Positions 32,160 to 34,108 of a stretch of DNA of 64,000 bases are shown in pieces. The stretch is from Nanobdellota archaeon (GTDB lineage Archaea > Nanobdellota > Nanobdellia > Woesearchaeales > GW2011-AR9), in the NCBI GenBank assembly GCA_030697505.1, contig JAUYPX010000018.1, forward strand, positions 3,265-67,264, in the 5' to 3' direction. A program made the translations under genes and the position numbers. Under the pieces are notes generated by a model. It was not told where the DNA came from. It did no database searches and was given only the letters and a program-made list of their open reading frames with translations. Every line of letters begins with the position of its first letter. The first letter of the stretch is position 1.

Positions 32160-33347
32160 TTATCCCTTTAAAGCCAGGTAAAGCTCTCGCATCTTTCTAT
32201 TCTTTCCTAGTTTTTCCAATGCTTGCGCTTCCAGCTGCCTGATCCGTTCACGGCTTAATCCATGCCTATCGCCTATCTGCTGCAGTTTGAGAGGTTCTTC
32301 ATCAAAGCCAATACGTTTATTGATAATATCCAACTCCATGGGGGTTAAAATTGATTTCAAAGTACGGTGAACGATCTCTTTTTGTTGATCTCGAAATACC
32401 TGCTCCAAAGGTGAAGCTGAAGCTTTGTCCTCAAGGACGGAATGAAAACTTAGGCCTGGAAAGTCATCTTCCTGAGTTTGAATTTTGTCTAACGAAAAAG
32501 GTTCGGCATCCAGCAAGGCATCCACCACTACTCTAGCAGGAAATTTAGTAGCCTTAACTATCTCTTCGACGCTTACATGGTCCTGGCCCTTTTTCTGTCG
32601 CAGCTGGATATGGGCCGTTTTTACTTTGTTAAAAACTGCTTCCGCCTGTACAGGTATGCGGATAGTTCGGCTGGTGTTGCTGATGGCCCGGCCTATTTCC
32701 TGCCGTATCCACCAAGTAGAGTAAGTAACAAATTTGAAACCTTTTCTATAATCAAAACCATCTACGCCTCGATAAAGACCTTCGTTTCCTTCTTGGATAC
32801 AATCAAGCAAACTCATTTTACCGCGGCGGGCATATCTCTTAGCGATAGAAACAACAAAACGTAAATTGTGTTTCGCAAGTAAGTCTCTCGATTCTTCCCA
32901 GACGGAAACCAGTTCTTCCAACTGTTCCCGTTTCTTATTGATTTTGCTGAGACTTGATCTGGAACGCCCATAAAGTACCTGCTCTTCATCCTGATTGAGT
33001 TTTTGCTGATAGGCCCCTACCACCGTTTTGTAGGTGCTGGTAAAGGGGACAATCTGACGCAATACTTCGATACGCCCATAGAATTTCTTTTCTGAAGTTG
33101 CTCTGACAGTTAAAAGGCGTTTCACTGCCTGTTTATTTTTCTTCTCCTCTTGCGGCAGCTGATCCAGAAAATAAGTTGTTAAAAATGCCGGGTCGGATCG
33201 GAATACCGTCCAGAGAATCTTGTTGCCATTTCGCTCAATCTGCTGAGCTGCGGCAATTTCTTCATCACGATTGAGAGGAGAATATCCTCCAATTTCTCGT
33301 AAATAAGTCTCAATGTTCTTACCGGTTACAGTAGGTTTTATCATCAT
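32160..33347 (-). CDS. bacterial-type RNA polymerase sigma-70 family factor (regions 1.2, 2, 3 and 4 all present)
   Basis: Region 1.2 [21 protein letters not shown]. Region 2 [62 protein letters not shown]. Region 3 [15 protein letters not shown]. Region 4 HTH [46 protein letters not shown]. Confidence 0.8.
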   Translation of the reverse strand: [395 protein letters not shown]

Positions 33348-33382
33348 TCAATCCATAAACACCTAAACCACACTAAAAACCT

Positions 33383-34108
33383 CTAATTAGACTTAAGAAT
33401 CAGTATATTTCCACGTCCCTTTTTAATCTTTTCTACTTTTCCTTTATGTTCCAGCTCAGTTACAATGAGGCTTACTTTGGCTTCAGAGAGGTACATCATT
33501 TCCTTGCGCAGCTCTTTCTGGTTGATCCGGCCGTCATGTTTTTTGATGATCTCTAACGCTTGATCAAGGTATCCTGGCTCCTTAGCCAGCTCTTCCTTAT
33601 GCTGCTCCATAGTTTTTTGGCTATCTTCTTTGATTTTTTTACGGAAGACCAGGAGAGAGCCGTATTTTTTCCTGGTGTAGATGATCCTTGCTAGGAGTAC
33701 AGTAAAAATGATTCCAGCGATGATCCAGGACCATAAAGGAAGGGGAGTTTCTTCGGTCTCCAGAGGAAGTTCCTGCTGGGTCTCCTGCCATAATTCGTCT
33801 TCTTCTACAAAATCTGGCAGCAGGAAAAGGTCTAAGATGTATTCTCCTTGAGCGGAAGTGATTTCTACTTGTTCGCTGATAATATACTGATCATTTTTAG
33901 CGGTGAGGGCGTACTTTCCGACTGGTAAATCAAAGGAATAGCTGCCGGTTTTAGCTAAATATTTCTGCTGGGGAATGGTGTTGATCTCGACTAAAACATC
34001 TTGAGCTACATCTAAATTTTCATCGTAGATGCTGCCTTTGAGGGTTGCTGCGGAAGCTAAAGGAGTCATGAGTAAGATGAATAAGAAAATGCTTAGTCCG
34101 TGCTTCAT
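33383..34108 (-). CDS. membrane-anchored putative transcription regulator: signal peptide, extracellular carboxypeptidase-regulatory-like beta domain, one TM helix, cytoplasmic winged HTH
   Basis: Signal peptide (LMTPLASAA), TM WSWIIAGIIFTVLLARIIY, and a C-terminal wHTH-like ALEIIKKHDGRINQKELRKEMMYLSEAKVSLIVTELEHKGKVEKIK. Confidence 0.45.
   Translation of the reverse strand: MKHGLSIFLFILLMTPLASAATLKGSIYDENLDVAQDVLVEINTIPQQKYLAKTGSYSFDLPVGKYALTAKNDQYIISEQVEITSAQGEYILDLFLLPDFVEEDELWQETQQELPLETEETPLPLWSWIIAGIIFTVLLARIIYTRKKYGSLLVFRKKIKEDSQKTMEQHKEELAKEPGYLDQALEIIKKHDGRINQKELRKEMMYLSEAKVSLIVTELEHKGKVEKIKKGRGNILILKSN

What the first reader, a model, noticed from the sequence alone, without database searches (positions are those of the whole stretch)
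32160..34108. Complete bacterial-type sigma-70 factor gene in an otherwise archaeal locus, co-oriented with a membrane-anchored wHTH protein and ileS
The 395 aa ORF has every hallmark of a bacterial sigma-70: region 1.2 ([21 protein letters not shown]); region 2.1-2.4 ([60 protein letters not shown]); region 3; and the region 4.2 HTH. Archaea use TBP/TFB and are not known to need sigma factors. The surrounding genes are archaeal in character: a tRNA that assembles only after removing two non-canonical introns, a TFS zinc ribbon, prefoldin, Taw1, and TATA boxes at -26. Composition and codon usage look continuous with the neighbours. The gene sits directly between a membrane-anchored one-component-like regulator (extracellular domain, TM, cytoplasmic wHTH) and ileS on the same strand. 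Either this is an unusual inter-domain transfer that an archaeon has kept, perhaps repurposed as a DNA-binding regulator, or the contig belongs to something other than a standard archaeon.
Basis: partly seen in the sequence, partly recalled or inferred. Interest (0 to 1): 0.85.

Follow-up and report, generated by a model that had tools for sequence, protein, structure and literature searches.

The report
Bacterial sigma-70 gene in DPANN archaeon
A gene for a bacterial-type transcription initiation factor (sigma-70) really is present, intact and under selection in the genome of a tiny Woesearchaeota-type (DPANN) archaeon; such genes were already reported in 2021, but what the protein does in a cell that uses archaeal transcription machinery is still unknown.

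Summary
Observation confirmed. ORF 32160-33347(-) encodes a 395-aa sigma-70-family protein (GenBank MDP3698430.1). It lacks region 1.1 and carries a clade-specific ~110-aa insert. The contig is archaeal (TFS, prefoldin, Taw1, NMD3, ZPR1, OapB/C; TATA boxes at -30) and sigma has native composition.

It is not a chimera. The order DUF7343 membrane wHTH - sigma - ileS recurs in independent assemblies of related Woesearchaeota/Nanoarchaeota. DUF7343 and sigma form one operon driven by a conserved archaeal BRE/TATA promoter.

Across relatives the same junction holds 0, 1 or 2 sigma genes. Sigma evolves 4-6 times faster than its flanks but stays under purifying selection (omega ~0.2-0.4).

The beta-prime-contact residues of region 2.2 and the region 4.2 recognition helix are kept. 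Residues invariant in bacteria (T440, W433, H455) and regions 3.1/3.2 are relaxed. No sigma-70-type promoters are detectable.

Sigma-70 genes in DPANN, especially Woesearchaeota, were reported by Castelle et al. 2021 with the mechanism left open, so the phenomenon is known.

Best reading: an old horizontally acquired, dispensable sigma, most likely working as a DNA-binding regulator. Docking on the archaeal RNA polymerase is not excluded.

The parts
32160..33347 (-). Sigma-70-family gene, 395 aa (GenBank MDP3698430.1, annotated 'RNA polymerase sigma factor RpoD/SigA [Nanoarchaeota archaeon]')
   Evidence: ORF; Pfam r1_2, r2 and r4 above cut-offs; NCBIfam RpoD-like hits, all below equivalog cut-offs; AF2 model pLDDT 84.6; Foldseek best matches are primary sigma factors; accession.
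33231..33314 (-). Region 1.2 (aa 12-39). No region 1.1 precedes it.
   Evidence: Pfam PF00140, 30.3 bits; alignments to B. subtilis SigA and E. coli sigma70.
32898..33230 (-). Clade-specific all-helical insert between regions 1.2 and 2.1 (aa 40-150), in the position of the sigma non-conserved region
   Evidence: Absent from B. subtilis SigA. Matched by only 8 of 1.84 billion cluster representatives, all sigma-like. Parts are as conserved within the clade as region 4.2. pLDDT above 90.
32652..32897 (-). Sigma2 domain (regions 2.1-2.4, aa 151-232), the most constrained part
   Evidence: Pfam PF04542, 59.3 bits. D403, Q406, E407, N409, Y430, W434, Q437 and R441 are kept; T440 is replaced by G. 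Regional omega about 0.09-0.27.
32493..32651 (-). Divergent sigma3 domain (aa 233-285)
   Evidence: No Pfam r3 hit. Three-helix domain in the AF2 model, pLDDT 85-91. H455 is replaced by Q and E458 by A. Low clade conservation, 0.36.
32412..32492 (-). Region 3.2 linker ('sigma finger' equivalent, aa 286-312), predicted disordered and nearly unconstrained
   Evidence: pLDDT below 50. Conservation ratio to bacteria 0.42. Omega up to about 1 between sub-clades.
32202..32411 (-). Sigma4 domain (regions 4.1-4.2, aa 313-382) with the recognition helix SRERIRQ
   Evidence: Pfam PF04545, 41.8 bits. R584, E585, R586, R588 and Q589 are kept in nearly all archaeal copies.
33383..34108 (-). Upstream operon partner, 241 aa: signal peptide, Ig-like extracellular domain, one TM helix, cytoplasmic DUF7343 winged helix-turn-helix
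   Evidence: Pfam DUF7343, 54.5 bits; weak CarboxypepD_reg. Hydropathy and positive-inside flank. Widespread in Woesearchaeota/Nanoarchaeota.
34130..34147 (-). Archaeal BRE/TATA promoter of the DUF7343-sigma operon (CCCGATATCTTTTTATAT), about -39 to -22 from the DUF7343 start codon
   Evidence: Conserved in five orthologous loci. TATA-like 8-mer at -30.
33348..33382 (-). 35-nt DUF7343-sigma spacer with no TATA element but a conserved GGTG-containing (Shine-Dalgarno-like) motif. This points to a bicistronic transcript.
   Evidence: Sequence. The spacer is 11-48 nt in the five orthologous loci and has a similar motif.
32076..32087 (-). ileS's own archaeal TATA element (TTTTTAAAGACC), -31 to -20 from the ileS start codon
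   Evidence: Conserved in four loci. The sigma70-like TTGACT...TATAAT stretch further upstream in the window is not conserved.
28907..32056 (-). Isoleucyl-tRNA synthetase, the conserved downstream flank
   Evidence: TIGR00392, 773.6 bits vs cut-off 621.4. 83-87% identical in the sigma-bearing close relatives L002, L007 and L009.
34187..34230 (-). Four tandem ATACTTTAGG-like sites at 10-12-bp spacing, in the divergent region between the operon promoter and the neighbouring secreted-protein gene. Candidate operator array; which protein binds it is unknown.
   Evidence: The only cluster of this motif in the window. Conserved in L007 and L010.

Best explanation
SHOWN.
- The ORF is a sigma-70-family gene of bacterial origin, fixed in the chromosome of a Woesearchaeota-type DPANN archaeon.
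- It was acquired long ago. Its composition is fully ameliorated, and it is present at the same junction in lineages whose flanking DUF7343 protein is only 56-62% identical.
- It is co-transcribed with a membrane-anchored wHTH gene from a conserved archaeal BRE/TATA promoter.
- It is dispensable and copy-number variable: 0, 1 or 2 copies at the same DUF7343/ileS junction.
- It evolves 4-6 times faster than its neighbours but remains under purifying selection.

INFERRED mechanism.
- It no longer works as a canonical bacterial initiation factor. The window shows only archaeal promoters and an archaeal cleavage factor (TFS).
- The parts of sigma that only make sense inside a bacterial RNA polymerase (sigma3, the 3.2 finger/linker, region 4.1) are relaxed.
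- Bacterially invariant promoter-recognition and melting residues (T440, H455, often W433) are lost.
- What is retained is sigma2, the clade-specific insert and the 4.2 helix-turn-helix.
- I therefore think it most likely acts as a free-standing, sequence-specific DNA-binding regulator of archaeal transcription. Like most archaeal regulators it would be a bacterial-type HTH protein.
- Lacking the autoinhibitory region 1.1, it could bind DNA through sigma4.2, and possibly sigma2, without a polymerase.
- Its expression is tied to the membrane wHTH sensor gene upstream.

Probabilities: identity and evolutionary history about 0.95; 'DNA-binding regulator, not a polymerase-bound sigma' about 0.4.
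For: - Family assignment.
- Archaeal host; source names.
- Native composition.
- Conserved synteny in independent assemblies and samples.
- Archaeal operon promoter and short spacer.
- 0/1/2 copy census.
- Rates: flanks 79-93% identical vs sigma 43-59%. dN is 0.29-0.57 for sigma vs 0.06-0.16 for flanks, with flank dS about 1.1-1.7. Regional omega is 0.09-0.27 for sigma2 and 0.5-1.0 for sigma3/3.2 between sub-clades.
- Residue pattern and regional conservation ratios: 2.2 = 0.80, 4.2 = 0.66, 3.1 = 0.44, 3.2 = 0.42.
- No sigma70-type promoters: 13 vs 18.4 +/- 4.1 expected; 3 vs 7.7 +/- 2.8; TTGACA not enriched.
- No region 1.1.
- From established knowledge, not tested here: region 1.1 inhibits promoter DNA binding by free sigma70, and N-terminally truncated sigma70 binds promoter DNA on its own.
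Against: - No DNA target was identified. TTGACA-like elements are neither enriched nor positioned. The only nearby repeat array (34187-34230) cannot be assigned to sigma rather than to the wHTH neighbour.
- The best-conserved segment is region 2.2, whose invariant D403/Q406/E407/N409 are the beta-prime clamp-helix contact residues in bacteria. This fits polymerase binding at least as well as a purely structural role.
- Y430, W434, Q437 and R441, which are single-strand and -10 contact residues, are also retained.
- No expression data were available.
- Only 64 kb of the genome was visible, so a bacterial-type core polymerase elsewhere cannot be formally excluded here. Castelle et al. 2021 report the archaeal factors TBP, TFB and TFE in DPANN genomes and do not mention a bacterial core polymerase.
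Confidence: 0.45

Rival explanations
1. Hybrid initiation system. Sigma docks on the archaeal RNA polymerase clamp coiled-coil through its intact region 2.2. That coiled-coil is the structural counterpart of the bacterial beta-prime clamp helices and is the docking site of TFE, Spt4/5 and the TFB linker. Sigma would then act as an auxiliary initiation factor, or as a competitor or inhibitor, at a subset of promoters.
For: Region 2.2 is the most conserved region relative to bacteria (ratio 0.80). D403 is kept in 11 and Q406 in 11 of the 12 archaeal copies compared, E407 in 10 and N409 in 9; all four are invariant in the seven core-clade copies. Y430, W434, Q437 and R441 are retained. Sigma2 has the lowest omega. 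The clade-specific insert adjoining sigma2 is conserved, which suggests a lineage-specific protein contact. The structural equivalence of the clamp coiled-coil across domains is established knowledge, not tested here.
Against: Sigma3, the 3.2 finger and region 4.1, which anchor sigma to the bacterial core, are relaxed. The gene is absent from close relatives, so it cannot be a general factor. No sigma-type promoter signal was found. No binding test was possible with these tools. The 2.2 residues could also be conserved for folding.
Confidence: 0.2
2. Sigma/anti-sigma-like pair. The co-transcribed single-pass membrane protein (DUF7343) sequesters or releases sigma in response to an extracellular signal, in the manner of ECF sigma/anti-sigma modules.
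For: The two genes form a bicistronic operon with a single-pass membrane protein whose C-terminus is cytoplasmic. This adjacency is conserved in every sigma-bearing member of the DUF7343/ileS locus. Castelle et al. found no conventional anti-sigma.
Against: The cytoplasmic part of the neighbour is a wHTH, not an anti-sigma domain, and nothing else is detected there. DUF7343-ileS exists without sigma in L020 and L021/L022. Sigma exists without DUF7343 next to it on the 1.56-Mb Woesearchaeota scaffold L015. DUF7343 is 4-5 times more conserved than sigma, with no sign of co-evolution.
Confidence: 0.1
3. The protein still works with a bacterial core polymerase. That polymerase would either be encoded elsewhere in this genome, or belong to a bacterial host or partner cell into which sigma is delivered as an effector.
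For: Core-contact residues of region 2.2 and the -35 recognition helix are intact. Fast evolution, presence/absence polymorphism and tandem duplication resemble genes involved in inter-organism conflict. DPANN archaea are generally predicted symbionts (abstract of PMC8204110).
Against: Sigma has no signal peptide or TM segment. T440, H455 and often W433, all invariant in 116 bacterial sigmas, are lost. The 3.2 linker and sigma3 are relaxed. TFS in the window implies an archaeal polymerase. Castelle et al. report the archaeal factors TBP, TFB and TFE in DPANN genomes and mention no bacterial polymerase. Known DPANN hosts are archaea (abstract of PMC8204110). No relatives were found on viral contigs.
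Confidence: 0.06
4. Functionless passenger: a decaying relic of an old transfer that simply persists in a recombination-prone spot.
For: Sigma diverges 4-6 times faster than its flanks. It is absent from close relatives with no remnant. Sigma3 and 3.2 are nearly neutral between sub-clades. Identities are incongruent across the junction.
Against: Full-length intact ORFs occur in at least ten diverged lineages. Omega is well below 1 overall and 0.09-0.27 in sigma2. Sixty-eight columns are invariant across seven core-clade sequences that average 40-59% identity to the window protein. The AF2 fold is confident. The operon promoter and Shine-Dalgarno-like spacer are conserved.
Confidence: 0.08
5. 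Artefact: a chimeric or mis-binned contig that joins bacterial and archaeal DNA.
For: 273-nt inverted repeats (97% complementary) bracket the 11.4-kb block that contains sigma. An independent Logan contig ends inside one repeat.
Against: The same gene order is recovered in independent assemblies from ENA, JGI, NCBI and Logan samples, including relatives that lack the repeats. Codon usage and tetranucleotide composition are native and the GC profile is flat. Both immediate neighbours are archaeal-type and share promoter architecture. Castelle et al. also excluded mis-binning.
Confidence: 0.01

Closest known systems
Sigma-70 genes of DPANN archaea (protein family fam00359 of Castelle et al. 2021, Front Microbiol, PMC8204110)
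   Same: A bacterial sigma-70-family gene on contigs whose other genes are archaeal. Castelle et al. found them prevalent in Woesearchaeota, excluded mis-binning, identified no anti-sigma, and left the mechanism unclear. The window gene is one of these; NCBI labels the MAG 'Nanoarchaeota archaeon'.
   Different: The paper gives one paragraph. Not described there, as far as I could read: the fixed DUF7343-sigma-ileS operon with an archaeal promoter, the 0/1/2 copy polymorphism, the 4-6-fold rate acceleration, the clade-specific insert, and the pattern of kept versus lost functional residues.
Bacterial primary and primary-like sigma factors (group 1/2: RpoD, SigA, RpoS)
   Same: Regions 1.2, 2.1-2.4, 3 and 4 occur in the same order. 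It is 40-45% identical to bacterial RpoD over regions 2-4. The best sequence and fold matches are SigA and sigma70 in holoenzyme structures. The region 2.2 core-contact residues and the -35 recognition helix are intact.
   Different: No region 1.1. All NCBIfam RpoD, SigA and RpoS equivalog scores are far below cut-off (211 vs 555 for RpoD). T440 and H455 are replaced in the window protein and W433 in most relatives, although all three are invariant or nearly so in 116 bacterial sequences. Distance to bacterial sigmas is about twice the bacterial spread. There is no bacterial polymerase context and no -35/-10 promoters.
ECF sigma / membrane anti-sigma gene pairs
   Same: A sigma gene co-transcribed with a single-pass membrane protein that has an extracytoplasmic domain.
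   Different: This sigma is not ECF-like: it has region 1.2, an insert and sigma3. The membrane protein's cytoplasmic domain is a wHTH, not an anti-sigma domain. The two genes occur independently of each other.
MzaA, the sigma-70-family component of the MZA anti-phage system
   Same: Shares generic sigma-70 regions 2-4 (NCBIfam NF041931, 200 bits; PADLOC 125.8 bits).
   Different: The score is far below the 800-bit cut-off. The ~330-aa MzaA N-terminal part is missing, and no other defence-system components were detected nearby.

Membership tests
Sigma-70 family (Pfam clan; NCBIfam TIGR02937 superfamily) | Region 2 domain (PF04542) | tested here: met
   59.3 bits vs cut-off 24, aa 157-227. TIGR02937 scores 90.9 vs 42.9.
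Sigma-70 family (Pfam clan; NCBIfam TIGR02937 superfamily) | Region 4 helix-turn-helix (PF04545) | tested here: met
   41.8 bits vs cut-off 24.1, aa 334-380. The RERIRQ helix is conserved.
Group 1/2 (primary-like) sigma factors | Region 1.2 (PF00140) | tested here: met
   30.3 bits vs cut-off 22, aa 12-39.
Group 1/2 (primary-like) sigma factors | Region 3 domain (PF04539) | tested here: inconclusive
   No Pfam hit at E <= 0.01. NCBIfam RpoD_Cterm aligns through it, AF2 predicts a three-helix domain with pLDDT 85-91, and relative P0004 has only a 'faint' precomputed hit.
Group 1 (housekeeping RpoD/SigA) | Region 1.1 (PF03979) N-terminal autoinhibitory domain | tested here: not met
   No hit. 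The protein starts about 10 residues before region 1.2, and all orthologues have the same short N-terminus.
Group 1 (housekeeping RpoD/SigA) | Score above the NCBIfam RpoD/SigA equivalog cut-offs | tested here: not met
   Best score is 211.3 bits vs cut-off 555 (NF004208). Every RpoD, SigA, RpoS and RpoH model is below its cut-off.
Group 1/2 (primary-like) sigma factors | Invariant -10 and extended -10 recognition and melting residues (W433, W434, Y430, Q437, T440, H455; E. coli numbering) | tested here: not met
   The window protein keeps Y430, W433, W434 and Q437 but has T440G and H455Q. Across 12 archaeal copies, T440 is lost in 12, W433 in 7 and H455 in 6. In 116 bacterial sequences W433 and H455 are 100% conserved and T440 is 98% conserved.
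Functional bacterial sigma factor | Binds a bacterial core RNA polymerase (beta-prime clamp helices, beta flap) | not testable with these tools
   The region 2.2 contact residues are conserved, but regions 3.2 and 4.1 are relaxed. There is no bacterial polymerase gene in the 64-kb window, and TFS is present.
Functional bacterial sigma factor | The genome uses -35/-10 promoters | tested here: not met
   Sigma70-like sites are depleted (13 vs 18.4 +/- 4.1; 3 vs 7.7 +/- 2.8). TTGACA is not enriched. An archaeal TATA element lies at -30 in 23 of 42 upstream regions.
DPANN archaeal sigma-70 genes (Castelle et al. 2021) | A sigma-70 gene on a contig whose co-encoded genes are archaeal, in DPANN and especially Woesearchaeota | tested here: met
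   Archaeal marker families are in the window. Source names are Nanoarchaeota or Woesearchaeota. Synteny holds across independent assemblies.
ECF sigma / anti-sigma pair | Adjacent membrane protein carries a cytoplasmic anti-sigma domain and strictly co-occurs with sigma | tested here: not met
   The cytoplasmic domain is a DUF7343 wHTH. The neighbour occurs without sigma, and sigma occurs without the neighbour.
MZA anti-phage system (MzaA) | Full-length MzaA (cut-off 800 bits) with the other system genes nearby | tested here: not met
   200 bits, covering only the C-terminal sigma part of the profile. PADLOC finds no other system components nearby.

The most novel reading that the evidence does not exclude
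The retained region 2.2 surface and sigma2 let this bacterial-derived sigma dock on the archaeal RNA polymerase clamp coiled-coil. It would then act alongside or against TBP, TFB and TFE at particular promoters. This would be a natural hybrid of the bacterial and archaeal initiation systems, in a lineage that tunes it by gene loss, duplication and rapid divergence.
Probability: 0.15. Interest if true: 0.9.

Novelty: already known. Interest (0 to 1): 0.5.

Why it matters
Sigma factors and the TBP/TFB/TFE system are textbook markers that separate bacterial from archaeal and eukaryotic transcription initiation. A sigma gene kept under selection in archaea raises a sharp, testable question: can a sigma domain work with, or around, an archaeal polymerase? 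The existence of such genes in DPANN archaea is already published (Castelle et al. 2021), so this window does not reveal a new phenomenon.

What the present analysis adds is a concrete system to test:
- a small clade with a fixed operon and an archaeal promoter;
- natural sigma-minus and double-sigma relatives at the same junction;
- a map of which sigma surfaces are still constrained (region 2.2, sigma2, the 4.2 HTH, a clade-specific insert) and which have been released (sigma3, the 3.2 finger, region 4.1, T440, H455, W433).

This map tells an experimenter which interactions to probe first.

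Tried and rejected
1. Chimera or mis-assembly. Rejected on synteny in independent assemblies, native composition, and gene order conserved in relatives that lack the 273-nt inverted repeats.
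2. ARAGORN default and intron modes, and Rfam at gathering and permissive thresholds, gave nothing credible. The low-threshold ARAGORN hits lie inside coding regions. I did not pursue manual reconstruction.
3. Bacterial-type promoters. Not enriched near the locus or in upstream regions across the window. The TTGACT...TATAAT upstream of ileS in the window is not conserved in orthologous loci.
4. Anti-sigma or defence-system context. No anti-sigma domain was found. PADLOC gives only a generic MzaA resemblance.
5. Donor lineage. A search with the clade-specific insert found no bacterial protein sharing it. The NJ tree gives no specific bacterial sister: nearest distances are all about 0.95-1.0, to CPR and Actinobacteria-like sequences alike. 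Monophyly of all the archaeal copies has only 40% bootstrap support, so a single acquisition is not established.
6. Viral origin. No relatives in IMG/VR.
7. Strict functional coupling to DUF7343. Weakened by loci that have DUF7343-ileS without sigma, and by a Woesearchaeota scaffold where sigma sits in another context.
8. A first NJ bootstrap run timed out and was redone with a faster implementation.
9. A tblastn search of plasmids with E. coli sigma70 was only a detour to obtain a reference sequence.
10. A literature hit for 'RpoD' in a DPANN paper referred to the archaeal polymerase subunit, not to sigma.

Full report
**1. What is there**

On the minus strand the window carries three genes in a row:
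- a 241-aa ORF at 33383-34108;
- a 395-aa ORF at 32160-33347;
- a 1049-aa isoleucyl-tRNA synthetase at 28907-32056.

The 395-aa protein passes the curated Pfam thresholds for Sigma70_r2 (59.3 bits), Sigma70_r4 (41.8) and Sigma70_r1_2 (30.3). NCBIfam RpoD, SigA and RpoS models align over regions 2-4 at 160-211 bits, but all fall far below their equivalog cut-offs. Only the sigma-70 superfamily model TIGR02937 is passed.

Against solved structures the best matches are B. subtilis and Staphylococcus SigA (E about 1e-46). The alignment shows region 1.2 at aa 11-39, then about 110 residues with no counterpart in SigA, then regions 2.1 to 4.2 at aa 151-385. There is no region 1.1.

An AlphaFold2 model (mean pLDDT 84.6) has confidently folded modules for sigma1.2, the insert and sigma2, for sigma3, and for sigma4. 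The 3.2 linker is disordered. Foldseek returns E. coli sigma70 and Thermus sigmaA from holoenzyme complexes.

The protein is GenBank MDP3698430.1, annotated 'RNA polymerase sigma factor RpoD/SigA [Nanoarchaeota archaeon]', from a 70-kb contig.

**2. The host is an archaeon and the contig is not a chimera**

The window encodes families restricted to archaea and eukaryotes or typical of archaea: a TFS/TFIIS zinc ribbon, prefoldin, Taw1 (wyosine), NMD3, ZPR1, the origin-associated proteins OapB and OapC, DUF7343 and a LAGLIDADG protein.

Of 42 genes with an upstream gap, 23 have a TATA-like 8-mer with a sharp peak at -30 from the start codon. This is the signature of archaeal promoters on leaderless or short-leader mRNAs. 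Sigma70-type -35/-10 sites are depleted (3 vs 7.7 +/- 2.8; 13 vs 18.4 +/- 4.1 around the locus).

GC content is flat. The sigma gene's synonymous codon usage correlates 0.856 with the rest of the window, which is typical. Its tetranucleotide distance sits at the 34th-48th percentile.

An independent Logan assembly of run SRR13727529 gives the same DUF7343-sigma-ileS contig.

A 273-nt inverted repeat, 97% complementary, has arms at 28625-28897 and 40277-40549 and brackets the 11.4-kb block that contains sigma. It is a hairpin-rich element found only in this genome, with partial copies at 7.2 and 23.3 kb. Relatives that lack it have the same gene order and orientation. It therefore does not signal mis-joining.

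**3. Conserved operon, variable content**

Only three proteins in the 5.8-billion-cluster database match over the full length, at 58, 44 and 39% identity. The rest are bacterial RpoD-like proteins, about 43% identical over 60% of the query.

All three full-length relatives lie downstream of a DUF7343 gene. In the two whose contigs extend further (P0003, P0004), ileS follows sigma. The contigs come from ENA, JGI and Logan samples. The longer ones also share FmrO, a 630-aa Pol-beta-like protein and TFS with the window.

The GTDB scan adds three genomes:
- a Nanoarchaeota MAG (L010);
- a contig labelled Methanosarcinales that is clearly from the same lineage (L009);
- a 1.56-Mb Woesearchaeota scaffold in which a more distant sigma sits in a different context (L015).

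Five orthologous loci share the element CCCGATATCTTTTTATAT about 30 nt upstream of the DUF7343 start codon. The DUF7343-sigma spacer is 11-48 nt in those five orthologous loci, has no TATA element, and contains a GGTG-type motif. ileS has its own conserved TTTTTAAAGACC element. DUF7343 and sigma are therefore a bicistronic operon on an archaeal promoter.

The DUF7343 protein has a signal peptide, an Ig-like ectodomain, one TM helix and a cytoplasmic wHTH. It is widespread in Woesearchaeota and Nanoarchaeota.

I walked outward through DUF7343 homologues to see what the junction holds:

| Locus | DUF7343 identity to window | Sigma genes at the junction |
|---|---|---|
| L020 | 83% | 0 (no remnant) |
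| L021/L022 | 71% | 0 (no remnant) |
| L023 | 62% | 1 |
| L025/L026 | 57% | 2 in tandem |

Identities across the junction are incongruent: L020 has DUF7343 at 83% but IleS at 63%, while L021 has 69% and 86%. This suggests recombination at this spot.

One relative, P0245, is a 708-aa fusion of two sigma modules.

Sigma is therefore old in this lineage, dispensable, and variable in copy number.

**4. How it evolves**

Between the window and its syntenic relatives the flanking proteins are 79-93% identical, but sigma is only 43-59% identical.

| Gene | dN | dS |
|---|---|---|
| ileS | 0.06-0.10 | about 1.1-1.7 (flank range) |
| DUF7343 | 0.08-0.16 | about 1.1-1.7 (flank range) |
| sigma | 0.29-0.57 | at or beyond saturation |

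Scaled to the flank dS, sigma's omega is about 0.2-0.4. That is 4-6 times the neighbours' value but clearly below 1.

By region, sigma2 is the most constrained (omega about 0.09-0.27). Sigma3 and the 3.2 linker approach neutrality between the two sub-clades (0.5-1.0). Sigma4 is intermediate.

Seven core-clade sequences share 68 invariant columns. Parts of the insert (mean pairwise identity 0.53-0.56) are as conserved as region 4.2 (0.56), and more conserved than sigma3 (0.36), region 3.2 (0.30) and region 4.1 (0.35).

The insert is matched by only 8 of 1.84 billion cluster representatives, none of them an ordinary bacterial sigma.

In a distance tree over regions 2-4 the core clade is monophyletic (96% bootstrap). 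Monophyly of all the archaeal copies has only 40% support. The archaeal copies lie 1.0-1.6 substitutions per site from bacterial sigmas, against 0.47 among the bacterial sequences. No donor can be named.

**5. Which sigma functions could survive**

I aligned 12 archaeal copies and 116 bacterial sequences to E. coli sigma70.

Kept in the archaeal proteins:
- the region 2.2 residues that contact the beta-prime clamp helices in bacteria (D403, Q406, E407, N409);
- Y430, W434, Q437 and R441;
- the -35 recognition helix (R584, E585, R586, R588, Q589).

Lost or variable, although invariant or nearly so in bacteria:
- T440, replaced in 12 of 12;
- W433, replaced in 7 of 12 (the window protein keeps it);
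- H455, replaced in 6 of 12 (Q in the window protein);
- E574 and E458.

Conservation relative to bacteria, by region:

| Region | Ratio (archaeal clade / bacteria) |
|---|---|
| 2.2 | 0.80 |
| 2.1 | 0.74 |
| 2.3 | 0.72 |
| 4.2 | 0.66 |
| 2.4 | 0.65 |
| 4.1 | 0.59 |
| 3.0 | 0.56 |
| 3.1 | 0.44 |
| 3.2 | 0.42 |

The released parts are those that thread through or clamp onto a bacterial core enzyme. The retained parts are the DNA-binding modules, the region 2.2 helix and the lineage-specific insert.

**6. Interpretation**

Shown:
- bacterial ancestry of the fold and sequence;
- an archaeal chromosomal location;
- vertical persistence with losses and duplication;
- expression signals of archaeal type;
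- purifying but relaxed selection.

Inferred: the protein does not act as a canonical sigma. I favour (about 0.4) a free-standing DNA-binding regulator that uses sigma4.2, and perhaps sigma2. Two points of established knowledge support this, though neither was tested here: region 1.1 normally inhibits DNA binding by free sigma, and archaeal regulators are generally bacterial-type HTH proteins.

The main rival (about 0.2) is docking on the archaeal polymerase clamp coiled-coil through region 2.2. That would explain why region 2.2 is the best-kept segment.

Less likely readings:
- an anti-sigma-like pairing with the DUF7343 protein (about 0.1);
- action on a bacterial polymerase (about 0.06);
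- a functionless relic (about 0.08);
- an assembly artefact (about 0.01).

I found no target motif. TTGACA-like elements are not enriched. The only local candidate operator is a four-copy ATACTTTAGG-like array at 34187-34230, and it cannot be assigned to sigma or to the wHTH protein.

**7. Comparison with the literature, and novelty**

Castelle et al. 2021 (PMC8204110) state that DPANN genomes encode sigma-70 factors, 'particularly prevalent in Woesearchaeota'. They say mis-binning was ruled out, no anti-sigma factors were identified, and the controlling mechanism 'remains unclear'. Further searches found no functional follow-up.

The headline observation is therefore already known, and this gene is already annotated as RpoD/SigA in GenBank.

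The locus-level anatomy, the copy-number polymorphism, the rate contrast and the map of retained versus released residues appear not to have been described. They turn a one-paragraph curiosity into a testable system.

I score interest at 0.5. The finding is real and biologically odd with an open mechanism, but it is not a new discovery.

Noticed in passing
window 28625-28897 and 40277-40549 (partial copies at 7159-7222 and 23241-23332): A 273-nt inverted repeat, 97% complementary, brackets the 11.4-kb block from ileS to the Pol-beta-like gene. The element is a string of perfect hairpins (MFE about -102 to -110 kcal/mol). It is absent from related loci, and an independent assembly breaks inside it. 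It could be MITE-like, a small-RNA gene or an invertible-segment boundary; its nature is unknown.
   Followed up: partly
window 34187-34230 (-): Four tandem ATACTTTAGG-like sites at 10-12-bp spacing lie between the DUF7343-sigma promoter and the divergently oriented gene for a secreted acidic coiled-coil protein (34286-35575). The array is conserved in L007 and L010 and looks like an operator array.
   Followed up: partly
L025 6795-9385 (also L026); protein P0245: A Woesearchaeota relative has two tandem, highly divergent sigma genes (389 and 471 aa) at the same DUF7343/ileS junction. Another relative, P0245, encodes a 708-aa fusion of a degenerate sigma module and a complete one.
   Followed up: partly
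L020 6729-6969; L021 6768-6804: Relatives with 71-83% identical DUF7343 have no sigma at the junction and no detectable remnant. L020 instead has a 240-bp hairpin-rich spacer. Its IleS is only 63% identical although its DUF7343 is 83% identical, which suggests recombination at this site.
   Followed up: partly
L040 609-6116: In a 102-kb metagenome contig, a divergent sigma (388 aa) lies just downstream of an ileS gene that carries an inserted histidine-phosphatase domain, with a holin-like small membrane protein in between. This is a second, differently ordered ileS-sigma adjacency. Whether the organism is archaeal or bacterial is unclear.
   Followed up: partly
L009 (CAYIEF010000043.1): This contig is labelled 'uncultured Methanosarcinales archaeon', but it carries DUF7343, sigma and IleS that are 83-87% identical (flanks) to the Woesearchaeal window. 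It is probably mis-binned or mislabelled.
   Followed up: no
window 22848-23354 and 24279-25132: A 507-bp intergenic region holds a long hairpin (about 23085-23160) and copies of the AATAAAGTAGTTTCTTTATT hairpin motif. It lies about 1 kb from the genes for the origin-associated proteins OapB and OapC and could be near a replication origin. Rfam finds no known RNA there.
   Followed up: no
window 26168-27010: A 280-aa ORF with HTH_3 and LAGLIDADG domains has markedly low GC (0.287 vs about 0.41). It is a possible mobile homing-endonuclease-type island.
   Followed up: no
window 50383-51053: An overlapping nucleotidyltransferase (106 aa) and HEPN (123 aa) gene pair, of the toxin-antitoxin or defence type. 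It is embedded between very large secreted or surface proteins (876, 1098 and 791 aa at 47751-56732) that have no Pfam matches above cut-off.
   Followed up: no
Low-threshold ARAGORN intron-mode hits fall inside coding regions.
   Followed up: partly
L002/L003 3027-3797: In the P0004 lineage, a 256-aa protein with a weak SpoIIE/PP2C phosphatase match sits between FmrO and the Pol-beta-like gene. In the window that position is occupied by the inverted-repeat arm. PP2C phosphatases take part in bacterial sigma partner-switching, but no STAS or kinase partners were seen.
   Followed up: no
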